This document shows positions 1,250-41,013 of a DNA stretch of 41,013 nucleotides, in pieces (the first letter of the stretch is position 1; every line of letters starts with the position of its first letter). The translations under genes were made by a program, and so were the position numbers. This DNA comes from a virus: UHGV virus genome UHGV-1836508. One strand, written 5' to 3'. The notes under the pieces are model-generated. The model did no database searches and was not told the DNA's origin. It was given only the letters and a program-made list of their open reading frames with translations.

Positions 1250-3615
1250 TAGATTGACTCCCCCATCTGAGCATCAGTCAATGCCTTGTGCCATATTCTG
1301 AAATTCCTGATATGACCAAATAAATGGCGTAACCCGGCTGTAGTCTGGCCTCCAATACGGATAATTGCGGAGTTCTGAATATATGACCATGTGGTTTTTG
1401 TTTCGCTGGATATACGCCCGTTACTTACTGAGCACGTAGACTGATCTGACTTTACACGCATCCCCATAACCATTTTTTCAAGCGATGCGTTTTCGTTTAC
1501 CCGTCTGTTAGCCAAACCTATATCACAATAAGGAAATCCGTCGTAATCTGTTGAACGACCGAAGCCAAGAATAATAGCCGCTCCGGTTTGATGACCGCCG
1601 GTATCAAAAACACGCGGTGCTGCATTTGGCGTTTTATACCAGTTCTTATGTACCTCACAAAGAACTGTAAAAGGAAGATTATAAAGGTTATTCTTGATTG
1701 GGACTGTCACCATATCGCTTGCGCGAGTGCTTGCAGTTATATCAGTTACAATAAATGACGAAGCACTTGATCCACCTTCCACTTGTGGAGTTGCGATATC
1801 CAGATAGTCTCCGGATACTGTGCTTGAACCTTTTACAGGAGCGTACTGAACCATCGCACCAATCATGCTCTCAGTATCCAGTGCATTAATTGTAGCCTGG
1901 AAGAAAATCCAACCAGTAGCCTCATCTTTTACTGCCTTTGAAATAATACGATTTGCAGCACCACCAGTTAGTTCAATTAAAAGTGTTGATAAATTGAGGT
2001 AAGCATCTCCCAAAAAAGTGTAAGTAGAACCATCATGATGTTCAAATCTTAAACGACACCTTATATTTTCAACATCACTTCTGACACGGCATGAAATGGT
2101 CACATATTTTTCATCACCTGTGACATCAAATCCTTTACTGCCAGAAACCGTTACGATACTAATCGCACTTGTTTGACCAATAAGAGTATCTTTTACAGTA
2201 AATCTACCATAAGTAAAATTAAAAGAATCCGTGGATATTTCTGTGAGTTCCAGATTGCTTGACTTATTCCATTTAGATGGATTTGTTGAATTAAGCAGAA
2301 GATTAGTTCTTTGCCCCTCAATAAGCAGGCCATCACGTTCAAATCGTGGCTCGTCAATGGCAGCCTCTGTCAGCACACCAGATTTATTAATATAGGTTGC
2401 TTTCGATGCGCGTTTAAACTTTACAACCTTATCGCCAGGCATCGTTATTTCATCATCACCAATAACAATCTTTTTATATGACGGCGAAAAGCCCGTAATC
2501 ATATCCAGTGAATCGTTAAACGGTATCCACACATCGGGAAGCGGCTGCAAAACTTGTTTATACGGCTCCGCAGCCTGGTTTGCATACTCTCTGGCTGCGT
2601 CTTCACTCGCTTTTGCAGCCGTCTGGCTTGCAGCGGATGCTTTCGCCGAGTTAGCCGCCGCAGTCTCGCTCGCCTTTGCGTTGGTTTCACTGGTTTTTGC
2701 AGCTTTTTGACTGTTGGCTGATGCAGTGGCAGAAGCAGCCGCCGCACTTGCAGAACCAGCTGCGGCACTCTCGCTTTGGGCTGCTGCATCCTGACTGCTT
2801 TTCGCCGCAGTTTCGCTGGCTTTAGCATTCGTTTCGCTGGTCTTCGCTGCCGTCTGGCTGGACTTTGCGTTAGTTTCACTCGTCTTCGCTGCTTTCTGGC
2901 TATTAGCCGCCGCAGTTGCTGATCCAGCTGCTGAAGTCGCAGAACCGGCTGCCGCACTCTCGCTTTCAGCTGCTGCATCCTGACTGCTTTTTGCTGCGGT
3001 AGCGGAGTTGGCGGCAGCACTCTGACTCGATTTTGCAGCTGCCTCGCTATTTTTCGCATTAGTTTCGCTGGTCTTTGAAGCTGTCTCACTCGCTTTTGAG
3101 TTAGTTTCTGATTTTTTGGCCGCTGTTGCGCTCGCTGCCGCCTCTTTAGCTTTTTGTGCAGCGGTGTTAATTATGGGAGTATTTTCTTTATACCATTCTA
3201 GGTTCTCATTGTGCTCATTAACGATCTGCGTAAGGGATTTTACGGTTAATTCCGTGCCATCTTCACGCTCAATTGTTATTTCATCCACAGCAGTCAGCCA
3301 ACTACGCATCATTTTTGAATCGGCTGACATGCGAGACATAAGCGCAGTAAAACGAGCACTAAATTGGGTCAAATCACCTTCATAGGTCGTAATTATTCTG
3401 CACGGAACATTTGTTTGGGTGCTGCCACCGTAGGCTTCAACAAGAGTTAACGAAGTGTCACTCTCGATTGATTTTATTTCATATAACTTATTATCGGGGC
3501 CAATCAATATCATACCTGGAAGGACGCCGTTCGCCGTCACTCCCCATGCTGTGCCTGTTCCCACTACAGTTTTATTTCCTTTAGTGAGATTTATTGTACC
3601 TTCCCTGTACCACAT
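1249..3615 (-). CDS. side tail fibre protein (lambda Stf-like) with Ala/Ser/Thr-rich repeats
   Basis: 788 aa directly downstream of J. Central region is built of repeated KTSETNAK / AAKSSQ / SATAA units, very like the alanine-rich repeats of lambda Stf-type fibres. ATG at 3613-3615. Confidence 0.8.
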   Translation of the reverse strand: MWYREGTINLTKGNKTVVGTGTAWGVTANGVLPGMILIGPDNKLYEIKSIESDTSLTLVEAYGGSTQTNVPCRIITTYEGDLTQFSARFTALMSRMSADSKMMRSWLTAVDEITIEREDGTELTVKSLTQIVNEHNENLEWYKENTPIINTAAQKAKEAAASATAAKKSETNSKASETASKTSETNAKNSEAAAKSSQSAAANSATAAKSSQDAAAESESAAAGSATSAAGSATAAANSQKAAKTSETNAKSSQTAAKTSETNAKASETAAKSSQDAAAQSESAAAGSASAAAASATASANSQKAAKTSETNAKASETAAANSAKASAASQTAAKASEDAAREYANQAAEPYKQVLQPLPDVWIPFNDSLDMITGFSPSYKKIVIGDDEITMPGDKVVKFKRASKATYINKSGVLTEAAIDEPRFERDGLLIEGQRTNLLLNSTNPSKWNKSSNLELTEISTDSFNFTYGRFTVKDTLIGQTSAISIVTVSGSKGFDVTGDEKYVTISCRVRSDVENIRCRLRFEHHDGSTYTFLGDAYLNLSTLLIELTGGAANRIISKAVKDEATGWIFFQATINALDTESMIGAMVQYAPVKGSSTVSGDYLDIATPQVEGGSSASSFIVTDITASTRASDMVTVPIKNNLYNLPFTVLCEVHKNWYKTPNAAPRVFDTGGHQTGAAIILGFGRSTDYDGFPYCDIGLANRRVNENASLEKMVMGMRVKSDQSTCSVSNGRISSETKTTWSYIQNSAIIRIGGQTTAGLRHLFGHIRNFRIWHKALTDAQMGESI
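2560..3140. repeat. in-frame tandem coding repeats (Ala/Ser/Thr-rich) inside the side tail fibre gene
   Basis: Reiterated gc(a/c)gc / agcgaaac / ctggct units at DNA level give repeated SETNAK-AAKSSQ peptide units; this also generates spurious ORFs in other frames. Confidence 0.7.
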
Positions 3616-20061: not shown

Positions 20062-20093
20062 TACAAAAAGGGTGGGCGTATAGCCCACCCTTT
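20062..20093 (-). terminator. intrinsic terminator / attenuator after the major capsid gene
   Basis: Minus-strand hairpin AAAGGGTGGGC-tatac-GCCCACCCTTT followed by TTTTG. Confidence 0.7.
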
Positions 20094-28875: not shown

Positions 28876-30435
28876 ATGACTGTTCGGATTGTATCTAACG
28901 CAGTAAATGCGCTTATTTCTGGCGCAGATGACAAGGTAAAGCAACTGGTGCAGCAAATGTTGAGCTACGAAGTCGAGACTGGCGACTGGAAGGGCACAAG
29001 CACGATGTTCAACTGGAGTAAAAACTCGTTCCCTGCTGGCTTTGCCAAGCCTGTAGCGGCGAACTTGAACAAGGCGGGCATCAAATGTGTTCATATCCGC
29101 AAAGACAAAGCCCCGGCGCTTGGTAAACCAAATCCGGCGGTTAACCCATTCCCATACAATCCTGATTATGCGTATCAGGATCAGACTGTGGAAACACTGG
29201 TTCGAGAGGGAATGATGATTGCGCAGATCGCTACTGGTGGCGGGAAATCTAACGTTGCCTGCAAAGCAGCTGCACGTATCGGTCGAATGACATTATTTTT
29301 AACAACCCGCTCTGTTCTGATGTTTCAAATGGCCGAAAACTTCCAGAGATCCATCGACTACCGCGCCGAAAATGGCGAACCGTGGTTAAAAGACCAAAAG
29401 GTTGGAGTCATTGGCTCGGGTGAGTTCCAGGTATCACGACATATCAACGTCGCTACAGTTCAAACTCTTGCAAGTTTCCTCGAAGAACCACCACGCGATG
29501 CAACACCAGATAAAAAGAGCTACCACCTCAAACGTCGGGAGTTGGTGAAACGCTTCCTTTCAAGTGTGTCTCTGCTTATTCTGGAAGAAGCGCATGAGTC
29601 TTCAGGTTCTAATTTCTATGACATTGCCAGATTATGTGTGAACGCAGACTATCGTCTGGCGCTTACAGCCACGCCGTTCATGAAGGATTCGACGGAAGCC
29701 AACATGCGCCTGATGGCGGTGGCCGGGCGAATTGAAATTAAAGTCACAGAAAAGTACCTGATTGATCGAGGCATTCTGGCAAAGCCGTACTTCCTTTATC
29801 ATAAAGTTGCCTACAAGCCAGACGAGGCCAGAATCAAGGCCGAACTTGCCAACAAACACCTCAATTTTAGAGTTGGTATGAGCACCGCCTACCAAAAGGC
29901 TTATCAGTTGGGGATCGTGTATAATTTGGGACGTAACGAGGCCATAGTGCGCGAGGCATTGCTTTATAAGCAACATTCACTCAACTGCATGACTCTGGTT
30001 CGTCTTAAACGCCACGGGCAAATCCTGATGGAGATGATGAAGGAGTCAGGTCTTAAAGTTGATTTCATCTATGGGGAATCTAACCAGACGACAAGGCAAG
30101 CAAAGCTGAATAGTTTAGCGTCTGGTGAAATAGATGTTTTAATAGGCTCGACTATTCTGGATGTCGGTGTTGATGTACCAAGCGTTGGTGCGGTCATTCT
30201 GGCTGGTGGTGGAAAAGCAGAAGTTGAAATGAGGCAGCGTGTCGGTCGTGGCTTACGAGCCAAAAAAAATCAGGCAAACGTGTGTTTTATCACTGATTTC
30301 ATTGACATTAGCAACAAATACCTGTTGTCTCACTCTTATGAGCGAAAACACATCATCGACACCACACCTGGCTTTGCAGAAGGTGTATTGCCTATTGATG
30401 GAGCATTCGATTTTGGAGTTCTGAAACGAGATTAG
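28876..30435 (+). CDS. superfamily 2 (DEAD/DEAH-type) helicase
   Basis: Motif I IATGGGKS, motif II LLILEEAHE, motif III LTATPF, motifs V/VI …DVLIGSTILDVGVDVPS…QRVGRGLR; strong SD TAAGGAAAGAGG. Confidence 0.85.
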   Translation: MTVRIVSNAVNALISGADDKVKQLVQQMLSYEVETGDWKGTSTMFNWSKNSFPAGFAKPVAANLNKAGIKCVHIRKDKAPALGKPNPAVNPFPYNPDYAYQDQTVETLVREGMMIAQIATGGGKSNVACKAAARIGRMTLFLTTRSVLMFQMAENFQRSIDYRAENGEPWLKDQKVGVIGSGEFQVSRHINVATVQTLASFLEEPPRDATPDKKSYHLKRRELVKRFLSSVSLLILEEAHESSGSNFYDIARLCVNADYRLALTATPFMKDSTEANMRLMAVAGRIEIKVTEKYLIDRGILAKPYFLYHKVAYKPDEARIKAELANKHLNFRVGMSTAYQKAYQLGIVYNLGRNEAIVREALLYKQHSLNCMTLVRLKRHGQILMEMMKESGLKVDFIYGESNQTTRQAKLNSLASGEIDVLIGSTILDVGVDVPSVGAVILAGGGKAEVEMRQRVGRGLRAKKNQANVCFITDFIDISNKYLLSHSYERKHIIDTTPGFAEGVLPIDGAFDFGVLKRD

Positions 30436-30437
30436 TT

Positions 30438-30716
30438 ATGAGCGAAAAGAAAACAACTTATTGCCAGGTGGCATTGTCTGATAAGGCCAATGAAAAACTT
30501 GGAAAATTCCAAATAAAACTCAAAGAGAAAAAAATCAAGATGTCTAAGGCTGAAGTTATCAATGCCATTCTGGAGACGATGACTATGGCTGAATTTGACA
30601 AAGTCACATCTGCCGTTGGGGTTTCCGCTAAGACGCGTGAGAAAATCATGCGCATCTATGAAAACTCCAATATGACAAAAAAAGATCTAGAGGAAATACT
30701 GAGCAGGTTGCCGTAA
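30438..30716 (+). CDS. hypothetical 92-aa protein (Lys-rich)
   Basis: ATG 2 nt after the helicase stop, so likely coupled; no recognisable motif. Confidence 0.5.
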   Translation: MSEKKTTYCQVALSDKANEKLGKFQIKLKEKKIKMSKAEVINAILETMTMAEFDKVTSAVGVSAKTREKIMRIYENSNMTKKDLEEILSRLP

Positions 30717-30748
30717 CATTTCATATTTACCCCCTATCTACTAATTCT

Positions 30749-30784
30749 ATGATGTGCTCACTTGTTAGAAAGGAGCACATCATG
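30749..30784 (+). other. 11-bp perfect stem-loop sequestering the SD and start codon of the next gene
   Basis: ATGATGTGCTC (30749-30759) pairs with GAGCACATCAT (30773-30783); loop holds AGAAAG of the SD; the ATG at 30782 is in the stem. Confidence 0.55.
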
Positions 30785-31348
30785 AGTTGGTTAAAAGAAT
30801 TATCATTTGTTGACACCACTGGCGCTAAGAAAAATCATTCTTTCTGGAAAGTCAGCGATCCTTCTGATTTTCTTGTTGGTGCTAATGCTGCTTTTGAATT
30901 GCTTAACTTTTATCAACGTTATCCAGAAATGAAACACAGTCCACTCCTGTACAGAATAACAAACGATATGAATAGGTCTGGTTTATTATCAAGTGAGTCA
31001 GCGAAAGGCTTTTTTAGCAAAATTACGCCTCACATATCATTCGATGCAACAAACGAAATTGATTATCTATCCACGAAATCTCAAGAACAATTATCTGTAC
31101 CACCTGAGAAAAAAGAAAGACGAATTGCCAGCATTGAAAATATATCGAAAGAGCTTCGCACAACAACGTTGAGGCTGCTGAACTTTCTTACGCTGCTTAA
31201 TTGGATAGATGATCAAACATTGATTCCATCAACAGATGCGTTGGATAACAGAGTCCTTAGGCTGAACAAAAAATCGCAATTTGGTTTTGTGTTCACCAAA
31301 AAAGGTGAAGATTTAATCAAAAGAAAATATAGATTATTGAATGATTAA
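30782..31348 (+). CDS. hypothetical 188-aa protein (AT-rich accessory gene)
   Basis: SD AAAGGAG 7 nt upstream of the ATG at 30782; the track start at 30749 lacks an SD. Confidence 0.55.
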   Translation: MSWLKELSFVDTTGAKKNHSFWKVSDPSDFLVGANAAFELLNFYQRYPEMKHSPLLYRITNDMNRSGLLSSESAKGFFSKITPHISFDATNEIDYLSTKSQEQLSVPPEKKERRIASIENISKELRTTTLRLLNFLTLLNWIDDQTLIPSTDALDNRVLRLNKKSQFGFVFTKKGEDLIKRKYRLLND

Positions 31349-31354
31349 TAGTCT

Positions 31355-31384
31355 ACATGCAGGTGTATGAGAGCACCTGCATGT
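31355..31384 (+). terminator. stem-loop terminator after the 188-aa gene
   Basis: ACATGCAGGTG-tatgagag-CACCTGCATGT directly after the stop; T-run is interrupted. Confidence 0.45.
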
Positions 31385-31637
31385 GACATTCATCACATTT
31401 TTGAATGTATATACCTTCGGCTGAAAAAGATCTTGATAGGCTAAATGATATTTGTAGGCTTCGCCTCCGAAGAAATTCGGAGGATATATGCGACAATTTA
31501 TAAAAACGTGTGACCTAAGAAATATAGTAGATGATATTGCATGTGATGAAATTAGCAAAAAAGAGAAGAACAAAAACGCCAATTAACGCTATCTACCTAT
31601 AAATCTGAAGAGTTCAATAGGATGCATATCTGAAACA

Positions 31638-31673
31638 CGCCCTCGACAATACCAAAAAGATTTGTCGAGGGCG
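31638..31673. terminator. bidirectional hairpin terminator between convergent accessory genes
   Basis: CGCCCTCGACAA-taccaaaaagatt-TTGTCGAGGGCG, 12-bp perfect stem. Confidence 0.55.
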
Positions 31674-31732
31674 TCGGGCTTTCCCTATGTCTGAACGATT
31701 AAATTTTACAGCAATTAAATATTTTGTATATG

Positions 31733-32635: not shown

Positions 32636-33157
32636 ATGGTTAAAGACATCACCTACGGCATACCGGCTGAAGTCTGGCCGCGAGACTACGAACATGCTGA
32701 AAACATACTTATGTTCTGGCGGAAGAACAACATTCCTGTAAGAGTCACGCTTGAAGACGGTCAGGTGTTTTGCATGTACGTTCAGGGGACAATGCCTTCC
32801 CGCAATAAGCTAGATTTATGCCCGCTTCCATATGATAAAGAAAATCGTATAAGACTCCCACTTGAGCGCATTAGCACAATTGAATCAGGTGTAATCGATG
32901 GCATTGCTCGCGAGTTCAAAGGTAGGCTAACAATACATCCAGACTATGTTGACAATCAGCCATCACGCCGTGACTTTTTTGCGATATGTCGCAAGGCTTA
33001 TCAAAACGACCAATCTATAAGGGTCTACATGACAGACGGTCGTGAAATAGAAGGGGTGTCAAGAGGCGTTGATGCTTGCCAGGTCACTCTTAAATTAGAA
33101 GACGGCAGAAAAATACTTGTTTTCTTCGATTGGGTTGAACGAATCCTTCCATTTTAA
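32636..33157 (+). CDS. hypothetical protein with two tandem Rof/YaeO-like repeats (possible Rho modulator)
   Basis: Internal duplication …VRVTLEDGQVFCMYVQG…RIRLPLERISTIE / …QVTLKLEDGRKILVFFDWVERI resembling the LTLELKDGE…RLDKITSF pattern of Rof; TATAAT at 32602-32607 upstream. Confidence 0.35.
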   Translation: MVKDITYGIPAEVWPRDYEHAENILMFWRKNNIPVRVTLEDGQVFCMYVQGTMPSRNKLDLCPLPYDKENRIRLPLERISTIESGVIDGIAREFKGRLTIHPDYVDNQPSRRDFFAICRKAYQNDQSIRVYMTDGREIEGVSRGVDACQVTLKLEDGRKILVFFDWVERILPF

Positions 33158-35562: not shown

Positions 35563-35662
35563 GTGGAAAGTTGCGGTAGCCGGACGAGAACAGGTGGGTT
35601 TGTCGGTTGCCTGGAGGTAAGAGGTTGGTGTTTTTAGCCTGCGGGAAACAGGATGGTCATTT

Positions 35663-35686
35663 AAGGCCACCAGCATTGGTGGCCTT
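35663..35686 (-). terminator. hairpin (terminator or processing site) after gene B; contains a Chi octamer
   Basis: AAGGCCACCA-gcat-TGGTGGCCTT; near-identical copy at 36134-36157. Confidence 0.45.
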
Positions 35687-35691
35687 AGTCT

Positions 35692-40777: not shown

Positions 40778-41013
40778 CCCCTCTCCCCGTTTGGAAACAA
40801 CTCATTCGCCGTAGTGGATATAACCTCCCAATTAACGCCGACATCAGCGTTATGGCATTGTCTGATTTTTTGCATCACCTGTACGCATTGTTCATCAGTG
40901 AGATCTGTCCTTACTTCAGCAATATCTTCTTTGTGCCACATAACCATGAGTAAGGGTTCGTCTTCTGGATAGTTTTTCAGTTTCTCGATGATTTCTTTTG
41001 CTGTTCCAAACAT
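40771..41013 (-). CDS. hypothetical 80-aa acidic protein (start at or beyond window end)
   Basis: ATG exactly at the window edge; the upstream region is not visible, so the N-terminus may be longer. Confidence 0.45.
   Translation of the reverse strand: MFGTAKEIIEKLKNYPEDEPLLMVMWHKEDIAEVRTDLTDEQCVQVMQKIRQCHNADVGVNWEVISTTANELFPNGERGC

What the first reader, a model, noticed from the sequence alone, without database searches (positions are those of the whole stretch)
30749..30784. Perfect 11-bp hairpin that buries the SD and AUG of the 188-aa gene
ATGATGTGCTC (30749-30759) pairs with GAGCACATCAT (30773-30783); the SD AAAGGAG straddles the loop-stem junction and the start codon at 30782 lies inside the stem. 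There is no following U-run, so this is not a terminator. It suggests translational control (RNA thermometer-like, or dependence on an RNA-binding factor or on upstream translation) of an accessory gene that may be toxic.
Basis: seen in the sequence. Interest (0 to 1): 0.45.

Follow-up and report, generated by a model that had tools for sequence, protein, structure and literature searches.

The report
Conserved hairpin locking a gene's start
A very stable, evolutionarily conserved RNA stem-loop buries the ribosome-binding site and start codon of an accessory DNA-binding-protein gene on the E. coli LF82 phage-plasmid Cyrano, most likely keeping it silent while its upstream neighbours are expressed; this is an ordinary kind of control found at a new place.

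Summary
ATGATGTGCTC (30749-30759) pairs perfectly with GAGCACATCAT (30773-30783), and the stem extends to 30740-30791 (-28 kcal/mol). The SD AAAGGAG and the ATG at 30782 lie inside it.

The window is plasmid pLF82, also known as phage Cyrano, an SSU5-like phage-plasmid.

The hairpin is kept in relatives from Klebsiella, Enterobacter, Cronobacter, Salmonella and Citrobacter, whose proteins are only 35-45% identical. Across these relatives:
- there is one compensatory G-C/C-G swap and several G-U changes;
- the loop is free in sequence and length;
- the outer stem is rebuilt from different sequence.

This fits an RNA structure tied to this gene better than chance or a rigid operator.

Opening this RBS costs about 25 kcal/mol, the highest of 41 genes in the window.

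The thermometer idea is rejected, because the stem is predicted to stay closed above 70 C. It is not a canonical terminator either. Even so, published RNA-seq shows RNA falling 7.5-43-fold between the upstream 92-aa gene and this gene.

Best reading: a cis translational lock and insulator on read-through transcripts. How it is opened is unknown.

It is a new member of a known kind, of modest interest.

The parts
30438..30716 (+). orf92 (CYRAN_117), the last gene of the conserved helicase-orf92 unit. It is expressed in lysogeny and its stop codon is at 30714-30716.
   Evidence: RNA-seq gives 75-977 FPKM, and the gene is listed as a 'moron' 12-fold above background. There is no Pfam, NCBIfam or PDB match.
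30717..30748 (+). G-free, pyrimidine-rich spacer (A8 C10 G0 T14) containing the conserved motif TTTACCCCC (30726-30734). It also holds a weak sigma-70-like site, TTTACC-16-TATGAT, at 30726-30753.
   Evidence: Composition. T22, T23 and C28-C30 are invariant in alignment A2. The promoter-like site scores 9/12 but is not conserved in relatives. The motif is unique in the 108-kb plasmid.
30740..30747 (+). Outer left arm (ACTAATTC). It pairs with 30784-30791, and T30748 is bulged.
   Evidence: RNAfold MFE and centroid. Relatives form an equivalent outer helix from different sequence.
30749..30759 (+). Core left arm, ATGATGTGCTC. Its ATGATG is the mirror of CATCAT and gives rise to the spurious 199-aa start.
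   Evidence: 8 of 11 positions are invariant among 20 distinct relatives, although the arm is non-coding.
30760..30772 (+). Loop (13 nt). CUU 30761-63 can pair with AAG 30770-72, which leaves a 6-nt apical loop.
   Evidence: In relatives the loop sequence is free except for the 3' AAAG, and its length is 13, 14 or 25 nt.
30769..30775 (+). Shine-Dalgarno sequence AAAGGAG, 6 nt upstream of the ATG. It straddles the loop-stem junction and is fully paired in the MFE structure.
   Evidence: GGAG is invariant in A2.
30773..30783 (+). Core right arm, GAGCACATCAT.
30782..31348 (+). The 188-aa gene (CYRAN_116 / WP_000118609; phrog_13473). It encodes an N-terminal helical domain, a disordered linker and a C-terminal MerR/KilAC-like winged-helix domain. 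The start ATG at 30782-30784 lies inside the stem.
30784..30791 (+). Outer right arm (GAGTTGGT; the last base of the start codon, codon 2, codon 3 and the first base of codon 4). It pairs with 30740-30747.
31355..31384 (+). A second perfect 11-bp hairpin (ACATGCAGGTG/CACCTGCATGT, loop 8), 7 nt after the stop codon of the 188-aa gene. It is a possible 3' end of the gene's transcript.
   Evidence: (I6). Not examined further.

Best explanation
The inverted repeat is transcribed as part of the helicase-orf92-orf188 message. It folds at once into a local stem-loop of 19-22 bp that encloses both the Shine-Dalgarno sequence and the AUG of the 188-aa gene.

Because the 30S subunit cannot bind, read-through transcripts from the upstream operon, which is expressed in lysogeny, are essentially untranslatable for this gene. 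The untranslated downstream RNA is then lost, by Rho-dependent polarity, by decay, or both. Meanwhile the hairpin is left as a protective 3' cap on the upstream message. This explains why orf92 RNA is abundant and orf188 RNA is at background.

The element belongs to the accessory gene as its 5' control element. In effect it insulates a MerR/KilAC-like DNA-binding protein from its neighbours' expression.

Shown here: the sequence, the predicted stability, the conservation and limited covariation, co-occurrence with the gene, and the fall in RNA.

Inferred: that the hairpin forms in vivo, that it blocks initiation, and that Rho or decay causes the RNA drop.

Unknown: what, if anything, opens it. 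Candidates are a phage promoter firing inside the hairpin as in T4 gene e, RNase III processing, or a trans-acting factor.
For: Geometry and energy:
- Perfect 11-bp core and 22 bp in total; -19.1 and -28.0 kcal/mol; z = -3.84.
- Opening positions -15 to +13 costs 24.8 kcal/mol. The next-highest gene costs 15.4 and the median of the 41 annotated genes is about 9.

Conservation:
- The same hairpin sits on the SD and AUG in 20 distinct sequences from SSU5-like elements. Their orf188 proteins are 35-45% identical to the window's.
- The 14-bp helix is 97% paired. One pair is fully compensatory (C-G in 15 sequences, G-C in 5). G-C to G-U and C-G/U-A to U-G changes are tolerated.
- The non-coding left arm is the best-conserved stretch of the intergenic region, while the loop varies in sequence and length (13, 14, 25 nt).
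- The outer helix is rebuilt from different sequence in each clade. In the window, ACTAATTC pairs with GAGTTGGT with two G-U pairs. In relatives, (A)AATTC pairs with GAATT(A) or TAGTTC with GAACTA, including an A-U to G-C covariation with a synonymous codon change.

Linkage to the gene:
- Plasmids whose similarity stops at the orf92 stop codon carry other cargo and no hairpin (L005, L006).
- All 17 pattern matches that carry the SD+ATG and flanking sequence of this element repeat hairpin sequences already tied to this gene.

Expression (published RNA-seq, GEO GSE154648, in PMC9928086 S1 Table):
- orf92 is at 75-977 FPKM, the helicase at 28-326 and orf188 at 0-53.
- That is a 7.5-43-fold fall in all 9 samples in which orf188 is detectable; in the tenth it is at the floor.
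- orf188 is at the prophage background in LB.

Precedent: an SD-sequestering stem-loop has been shown experimentally to block 30S binding in IS200 tnpA (PMC4513863).
Against: - There is no direct evidence that the hairpin forms or blocks translation in vivo. Everything about translation is a thermodynamic prediction.
- Covariation is thin. Eight of the 14 core pairs never vary, and the single fully compensatory pair is one event that separates two clades. A symmetric DNA site would also preserve it.
- The core sequence is more conserved than pairing alone would require.
- The RNA-seq data are per gene, so they cannot place the drop at the hairpin. Short-gene counting bias may inflate orf92 somewhat.
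- A hairpin remnant persists in plasmids that have lost the gene (L003, L014). This could mean it also serves the upstream operon.
- A gene that can never be translated makes little sense, and no opening mechanism was identified.
Confidence: 0.6

Rival explanations
1. The hairpin is mainly the 3' end element of the upstream helicase-orf92 operon. It would act as a weak or atypical terminator, an RNA polymerase pause site, or a barrier to 3' exonucleases that stabilises the upstream message. Its overlap with the next gene's RBS would be secondary.
For: - RNA falls 7.5-43-fold after orf92, and orf92 RNA is 1.4-4.4-fold higher than the helicase RNA 5' of it. This is what a 3'-protected decay intermediate would look like.
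- In L005 a canonical stem plus T-run follows orf92 at the same place.
- In L003 and L014 the gene is deleted, but a 9-bp version of the hairpin remains.
- In some relatives the stem is followed by UUAUUUA and preceded by AAAA.
Against: - The window clade has no U-tract (GAGUUGGUUAAAAG). The terminator scan finds nothing here.
- Loops of 13-25 nt are atypical for intrinsic terminators.
- Recombination breakpoints put the hairpin on the cargo side, and it travels with the orf188 gene.
- The right arm is always exactly the SD plus the AUG.
- This reading is not exclusive of the best explanation.
Confidence: 0.2
2. The palindrome acts in DNA as an operator for a dimeric DNA-binding protein. Candidates are the 188-aa winged-helix protein itself (autoregulation) or orf92. 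It would overlap a weak promoter for the gene.
For: - Eight of the 14 core pairs are invariant, which is more than pairing needs.
- The product has a MerR/Par/RacA-like winged-helix domain, and such proteins bind palindromes.
- A sigma-70-like site, TTTACC-16-TATGAT, overlaps the left arm.
- The 25-nt loop variant differs from the others by about one helical turn.
Against: - Spacing between the arms is not fixed (13, 14, 25 nt).
- Changes that keep G-U pairing but break DNA symmetry occur in L042 and L184, and the outer helix contains G-U pairs.
- The outer helix co-varies with coding sequence.
- There is no second copy of the half-site pair anywhere in the 108-kb plasmid.
- The promoter-like site is absent from most relatives.
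Confidence: 0.1
3. The hairpin is opened by translation coming from upstream. Ribosomes that finish orf92 would re-initiate at the left-arm AUG (30749 or 30752, in frame), melt the stem and so allow or replace initiation at 30782.
For: - The first AUG after the orf92 stop is the left-arm AUG, 33 nt downstream.
- No stop codon lies between it and the main start in any variant. It is in frame in the window, L012 and L044 types, and forms an overlapping short ORF in the L007, L008 and L009 types (my reading).
Against: - The left-arm AUG has no SD and is itself base-paired.
- It is a forced consequence of CAT in the right arm.
- The frame relation is not conserved.
- The stop codon is 24 nt from the base of the stem, so a terminating ribosome cannot reach it.
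- orf188 RNA is at background even though orf92 is well expressed.
Confidence: 0.06
4. The hairpin is an RNA thermometer that melts at host temperature or on heat shock.
For: Only the general architecture supports this: the SD and AUG lie in a hairpin.
Against: - The predicted unpaired probability of the SD and AUG bases is at most 0.07 at 37 C, 0.08 at 42 C and 0.11 at 50 C. The bases are still mostly paired at 75 C.
- The helix is perfect and lacks the internal mismatches or bulged G typical of ROSE and fourU elements.
- There is no Rfam match above noise.
Confidence: 0.02

Closest known systems
IS200 tnpA 5'-UTR stem-loop (SD-sequestering cis repressor)
   Same: A local mRNA hairpin encloses a strong SD, keeps a potentially harmful gene of a mobile element almost untranslated, and protects it from impinging transcription. 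Inhibition of 30S binding was shown by toeprinting and stem mutations (PMC4513863).
   Different: IS200 has a separate terminator hairpin upstream, an antisense sRNA (art200) and an Hfq contribution. None of these was found here. Here a single hairpin covers both SD and AUG, it is intercistronic inside an operon-like array, and there is no sequence similarity.
Phage T4 gene e (lysozyme), soc and I-TevI: RBS hairpin in early or read-through transcripts, bypassed by late promoters that fire inside the hairpin (from my own knowledge: McPheeters et al. 1986; Gott et al. 1988; not retrieved here)
   Same: It is a phage gene lying downstream of earlier-expressed genes. Read-through RNA carries both arms and is translationally silent. 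The arrangement would give temporal control without a repressor protein.
   Different: No conserved promoter was found inside the hairpin. The sigma-70-like site TTTACC-16-TATGAT exists only in the window clade, and late promoters of SSU5-like phages are not known. This is a functional analogy only.
IS10/Tn10 'fold-back inhibition' of transposase translation in read-through transcripts (from my own knowledge: Davis, Simons and Kleckner 1985; not retrieved)
   Same: An upstream sequence that is present only in externally initiated transcripts pairs with the RBS and blocks translation.
   Different: It has the same dependence on an internal promoter, which is not demonstrated here.
Intercistronic stabiliser hairpins and Rho-dependent polarity in operons (general knowledge)
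   Same: There is a stable hairpin between cistrons, the upstream RNA is more abundant than the downstream RNA, and an untranslated downstream cistron is expected to be a Rho substrate.
   Different: Typical stabilisers (REP elements, the puf hairpin) do not overlap the next RBS. Rho involvement was not tested here. The only hint is a G-free, C-rich 32-nt spacer.

Membership tests
RBS-sequestering mRNA hairpin (cis translational repressor) | The SD and/or start codon are base-paired within a local stem. | tested here: met
   GAG of the SD and the AU of the AUG lie in the 11-bp core. The G of the AUG and the next 7 nt lie in the outer helix. AAG of the SD pairs with CUU in the loop.
RBS-sequestering mRNA hairpin (cis translational repressor) | The stem is stable enough to compete with 30S binding, well beyond about -6 kcal/mol. 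| tested here: met
   -19.1 kcal/mol for the core and -28.0 kcal/mol for the extended stem. The opening cost is 24.8 kcal/mol, the highest of 41 genes. These are predictions only.
RBS-sequestering mRNA hairpin (cis translational repressor) | Pairing is maintained in evolution (covariation). | tested here: inconclusive
   97% of cells are paired. There is 1 fully compensatory pair in the core and 1 in the outer helix, and 3 G-U substitutions, but 8 of 14 pairs never vary. The covariation score exceeds all 500 shuffles and all slid controls. There are few independent events.
RBS-sequestering mRNA hairpin (cis translational repressor) | Stem-disrupting mutations raise translation and compensatory mutations restore repression. 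| not testable with these tools
   Needs reporter fusions or toeprinting.
RNA thermometer (ROSE, fourU and similar) | An imperfect stem that melts gradually between about 30 and 42 C. | tested here: not met
   The helix is perfect. The unpaired probability of the SD and AUG stays at or below 0.08 at 42 C and the bases are mostly paired at 75 C. There is no Rfam hit above noise.
Intrinsic (Rho-independent) terminator | A G+C-rich stem with a short loop (3-8 nt), followed immediately by a U-tract. | tested here: not met
   The scan reports no terminator at this site. The 3' flank is GAGUUGGUUAAAAG and the loop is 13 nt (6 nt if the inner 3 bp form). Some relatives have UUAUUUA after the stem, but this is not conserved.
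Intrinsic (Rho-independent) terminator | RNA 3' ends or a drop in transcript level at the site. | tested here: inconclusive
   Gene-level RNA-seq shows a 7.5-43-fold drop between orf92 and orf188. It cannot place the drop or tell termination from decay.
Palindromic operator of a dimeric DNA-binding protein | Fixed half-site spacing, strict DNA symmetry, and usually several sites per element. | tested here: not met
   Spacing is 13, 14 or 25 nt. Variants that break DNA symmetry but keep G-U pairing occur. There is a single copy in the 108-kb plasmid.
RNase III processing site | About two turns (around 20 bp) of nearly continuous double-stranded RNA. | tested here: inconclusive
   The window has 22 bp with two 1-nt bulges. 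Relatives have 12-18 bp. Cleavage was not testable.
T4 gene e-type promoter-in-hairpin switch | A promoter placed so that its transcripts start inside or after the 5' arm. | tested here: inconclusive
   TTTACC-16-TATGAT (30726-30753) would start transcription near 30760, but it scores at chance level (16 sites found against 12.6 expected) and is absent from most relatives. Phage-specific promoters are unknown.

The most novel reading that the evidence does not exclude
The hairpin is the off-state of a genuine switch. The 188-aa MerR/KilAC-like DNA-binding protein would be an antirepressor-type or other developmental regulator of SSU5-like phage-plasmids. It would be made only when the stem is bypassed or cut, either by a phage promoter firing inside the hairpin or by RNase III or another induced factor. 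The element would then gate the lysogeny-to-lysis decision, or plasmid maintenance, of a widespread family of enterobacterial phage-plasmids whose induction circuitry is still undescribed.
Probability: 0.12. Interest if true: 0.6.

Novelty: new member of a known kind. Interest (0 to 1): 0.3.

Why it matters
SSU5-like phage-plasmids are common in E. coli, Klebsiella and Salmonella and can carry resistance genes, yet their regulation is almost unknown.

This element is a clear, conserved and easily testable piece of post-transcriptional control in that family. It explains why a gene lying directly downstream of a lysogeny-expressed operon stays silent. It also settles a start-codon annotation conflict (188 aa against 199 aa; the 199-aa form is present in a cluster of 483 database sequences).

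If the gated protein proves to be a developmental regulator, the hairpin would be part of the lysis-lysogeny or maintenance switch. On present evidence it is a routine example of RBS occlusion.

Tried and rejected
- Rfam scan of 30300-31700 at E up to 10: only noise, such as microRNA models at 18 bits.
- Thermometer idea: rejected by a temperature series.
- Repeated operator: neither the half-site nor the TTTACCCCC motif has another paired copy in the window or in the whole 108-kb plasmid.
- Internal sigma-70 promoter: present at 9/12 only in the window clade, so not conserved.
- Pattern scan of viral contigs for the two arms: 120 or more hits, mostly chance. Only 17 had this element's SD+ATG and flanking context, and all 17 repeat hairpin sequences already tied to the orf188 gene in SSU5-like loci. 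No new contexts or variants emerged.
- Metagenome and genome scans: no new stem variants.
- orf92 as the trans-factor: it looks like a beta-alpha-alpha (ribbon-helix-helix-like) protein to my eye. There is no Pfam, NCBIfam or PDB sequence support, and the AF2 model was too poor (pLDDT 57) to search with.
- orf188: no Pfam, NCBIfam or PDB sequence hit. HMMER against 1.84 billion representatives found only the family itself. The afdb50 fold library was unavailable.
- Antisense-RNA idea: a '-' strand promoter-like site at 30992-30963 exists, but a U-run after the hairpin on the minus strand is seen only in one clade. Not pursued.

Full report
**What is there**

The window is identical to E. coli LF82 plasmid pLF82 (NC_011917.1, positions 36162-77174). 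This plasmid is also known as phage Cyrano, a 108-kb SSU5-like phage-plasmid.

At the reported coordinates the sequence reads TCT-ATGATGTGCTC-ACTTGTTAGAAAG-GAGCACATCAT-GAG. The repeat finder confirms two 11-nt arms (30749-30759 and 30773-30783), 100% complementary, with 13 nt between them.

RNAfold extends the helix as follows:
- 30740-30747 pairs with 30784-30791 (8 bp, two of them G-U).
- T30748 is bulged.
- CUU 30761-63 pairs with AAG 30770-72.
- The free energy is -19.1 kcal/mol for the core and -28.0 kcal/mol for 30740-30791.
- The z-score is -3.84 against 200 dinucleotide shuffles.

The SD AAAGGAG (30769-75) and the ATG (30782-84) are entirely inside this structure.

**Chance**

A perfect hairpin of 11 bp or more turns up in 40% of shuffled windows, although the window has six against 0.47 expected. 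The hairpin is therefore not significant by itself. The case rests on its placement and its conservation.

**Start codon**

The Cyrano record starts the gene at 30749 (199 aa). RefSeq and phage PhiR41_1 start it at 30782 (188 aa).

The left-arm ATGATG is simply the mirror image of CATCAT in the right arm and has no SD. In diverged homologues the main frame is closed by a TAA a few codons upstream, and the only start codons follow the SD. The protein alignment begins at M1. The start at 30782 is correct.

**Conservation**

The 188-aa protein (phrog_13473, no Pfam) occurs only in SSU5-like elements. Loci were collected from plasmids, IMG/VR, metagenomes and Logan assemblies. Their hosts are E. 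coli, Klebsiella, Enterobacter, Cronobacter, Salmonella and Citrobacter, and their proteins are 35-45% identical to the window's. All of them carry the same hairpin on the SD and AUG.

In an alignment of 20 distinct sequences (A2):
- The non-coding left arm is the most conserved part of the intergenic region, with 8 of 11 positions invariant.
- The loop keeps only its 3' AAAG and varies in length (13, 14 or 25 nt).

Pair counting gives:
- A 14-bp helix that is 97% paired.
- Eight invariant pairs.
- One fully compensatory pair: G30751-C30781 in the window clade against C-G in the other 15 sequences.
- G-C to G-U in L042 and L184, and two positions that alternate with U-G.
- A covariation score above all 500 shuffles and above all slid controls.

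Outside the core, each clade extends the stem with its own sequence. In the window, ACTAATTC pairs with GAGTTGGT. In relatives, AATTC pairs with GAATT or TAGTTC with GAACTA. This includes an A-U to G-C change matched to a synonymous codon change.

The number of independent events is small. Taken together, though, the variable spacing, the G-U tolerance and the co-evolution of the upstream sequence with codons 2-4 fit an RNA helix better than a DNA operator.

No second copy of the half-sites exists in the whole plasmid.

**Which gene owns the hairpin**

Many related plasmids are similar only up to the orf92 stop codon and then carry different cargo. These have no such hairpin: L005 has a canonical stem plus T-run there, and L006 has another gene.

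Scanning IMG/VR for the two arms gave mostly chance hits. The 17 hits that carry this element's SD+ATG and flanking context all repeat hairpin sequences already tied to the orf188 gene in SSU5-like loci.

The hairpin is therefore a 5' element of the accessory gene.

Two plasmids (L003, L014) have lost the gene but keep a 9-bp remnant of the hairpin.

**Strength of the block**

Opening the region from -15 to +13 around the start costs 24.8 kcal/mol. This is the highest value among the 41 annotated genes of the window. The next is 15.4 and the median is about 9.

The predicted probability that the SD or AUG bases are unpaired is at most 0.07 at 37 C, 0.08 at 42 C and 0.11 at 50 C. The stem is still largely closed at 75 C. 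The RNA-thermometer suggestion is therefore rejected. Rfam has no match.

**Expression data**

Misson et al. 2023 (PMC9928086) re-analysed RNA-seq of LF82 (GEO GSE154648). Their S1 Table gives log2(5+FPKM) for five conditions in duplicate. After conversion:

| Gene | FPKM range |
|---|---|
| Helicase (CYRAN_118) | 28-326 |
| orf92 (CYRAN_117) | 75-977 |
| orf188 (CYRAN_116) | 0-53 |

RNA therefore falls 7.5-43-fold between orf92 and orf188 in all 9 samples in which orf188 is detectable. In the tenth, an LB replicate, orf188 is at the floor. orf92 is listed as a 'moron' 12-fold above the prophage background, while orf188 sits at background in LB. orf92 RNA is also 1.4-4.4-fold higher than the helicase RNA upstream of it.

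Caveats: these are per-gene counts, short genes are somewhat inflated, and the position of the drop is not resolved.

**Interpretation**

The hairpin is not a canonical intrinsic terminator:
- The scan finds none at this site.
- The 3' flank is GAGUUGGUUAAAAG.
- The loop is long.

The element nevertheless coincides with the effective end of the upstream transcript.

The simplest account has three steps:
1. The stem blocks initiation on read-through RNA.
2. The untranslated orf188 RNA is removed by Rho polarity, by decay, or both. The 32-nt spacer before the stem contains no G and is C-rich, which is compatible with Rho loading but does not prove it.
3. The hairpin remains as a 3' cap that stabilises orf92 RNA.

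Translation coupling with orf92 is unlikely. The orf92 stop codon is 24 nt from the base of the stem.

**The gated protein**

Nothing indicates a toxin. The product is probably a DNA-binding regulator or an anchoring protein.

**What opens the lock**

This is unknown.
- A sigma-70-like site, TTTACC-16-TATGAT (30726-30753), would start transcription inside the loop and give an mRNA without the left arm. This is the T4 gene e or IS10 fold-back design. However, the site scores at chance level and is not conserved.
- The helix is long enough for RNase III in the window (22 bp) but not in all relatives (12-18 bp).
- The element may also be a constitutive damper that allows only trace expression, like the IS200 tnpA stem-loop (PMC4513863).

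**Verdict**

The finding is a conserved RBS-occluding intercistronic hairpin, a new member of a well-known kind. Its interest is modest unless the gated protein turns out to be a developmental regulator of this phage-plasmid family.

Noticed in passing
window 30438-30716 (+): orf92 (CYRAN_117) is one of the most highly transcribed Cyrano genes in lysogeny (12-fold above background, up to about 980 FPKM), yet has no Pfam, NCBIfam or PDB match. Its N-terminal half (TYCQVAL strand, then two helices, 'MSKAEVINAILE') looks ribbon-helix-helix-like to my eye. The AF2 model was too poor (pLDDT 57) to test this.
   Followed up: partly
window 32636-33157 (+): This gene encodes a full-length homologue of FljA, the 'repressor of phase-1 flagellin' (PF03614, E 1e-80), with a weak Hfq/LSM-like C-terminal hit. 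It is kept in synteny downstream of the helicase-orf92 unit in all relatives examined. As an RNA-binding translational repressor carried on a phage-plasmid, it might act on host flagellin or on plasmid mRNAs.
   Followed up: no
window 31355-31384 and 31637-31674: There are two more perfect hairpins (11 bp with loop 8, and 13 bp with loop 12). One lies just after the orf188 stop codon and the other in the gap between orf188 and the convergent lipoprotein gene. Neither has a clear T-run on the + strand. They are possibly transcript 3' ends or a bidirectional terminator.
   Followed up: no
window 30716-30720, compared with plasmid loci L003-L014: The region downstream of orf92 is a cargo hotspot. 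Related plasmids stay 85-89% identical up to the orf92 stop codon (or up to 30691) and then carry unrelated genes. The FljA-like gene follows further on.
   Followed up: partly
L006:1790-1830 (plasmid pM160133_p3): In this plasmid a different gene replaces orf188. Its SD (GGGAG) is also paired, with codons 3-4 (GGGAGAC/GTCTCCC, 7 bp), and the ATG sits in the loop. This is a second, independent RBS hairpin at the same genomic position.
   Followed up: no
window 30749-31348; protein cluster P0002: The 199-aa form of the protein, which starts at the SD-less ATG 30749, is in databases as a cluster of 483 member sequences and in the Cyrano record. It appears to be a systematic start-codon mis-call caused by the palindrome.
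   Followed up: yes
L015 (JAEWTL010000044.1, 'MAG: Bacillota bacterium'): A 29.6-kb contig of a metagenome-assembled genome labelled Bacillota carries the enterobacterial SSU5-like orf188 locus. Its hairpin region is identical to that of an E. coli plasmid (L009). This is probably a binning contaminant.
   Followed up: no
window 2542-2611, 20067-20093, 35662-35687: These are further perfect inverted repeats of 11 bp or more. The window has six in total against 0.47 expected by chance. 20067-20093 (AAAGGGTGGGC/GCCCACCCTTT) lies between the major capsid gene and the next gene and looks terminator-like.
   Followed up: no
window 40908-41013 and the rest of NC_011917.1: The phage-plasmid carries chromosomal-type housekeeping genes (metG, apbC, dnaE, nrdAB, thyA, folA-like). 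It also has a cspG cold-shock RNA chaperone gene at plasmid position 10937-11152. Csp proteins melt RNA structure, so this is a speculative candidate for modulating the hairpin.
   Followed up: no
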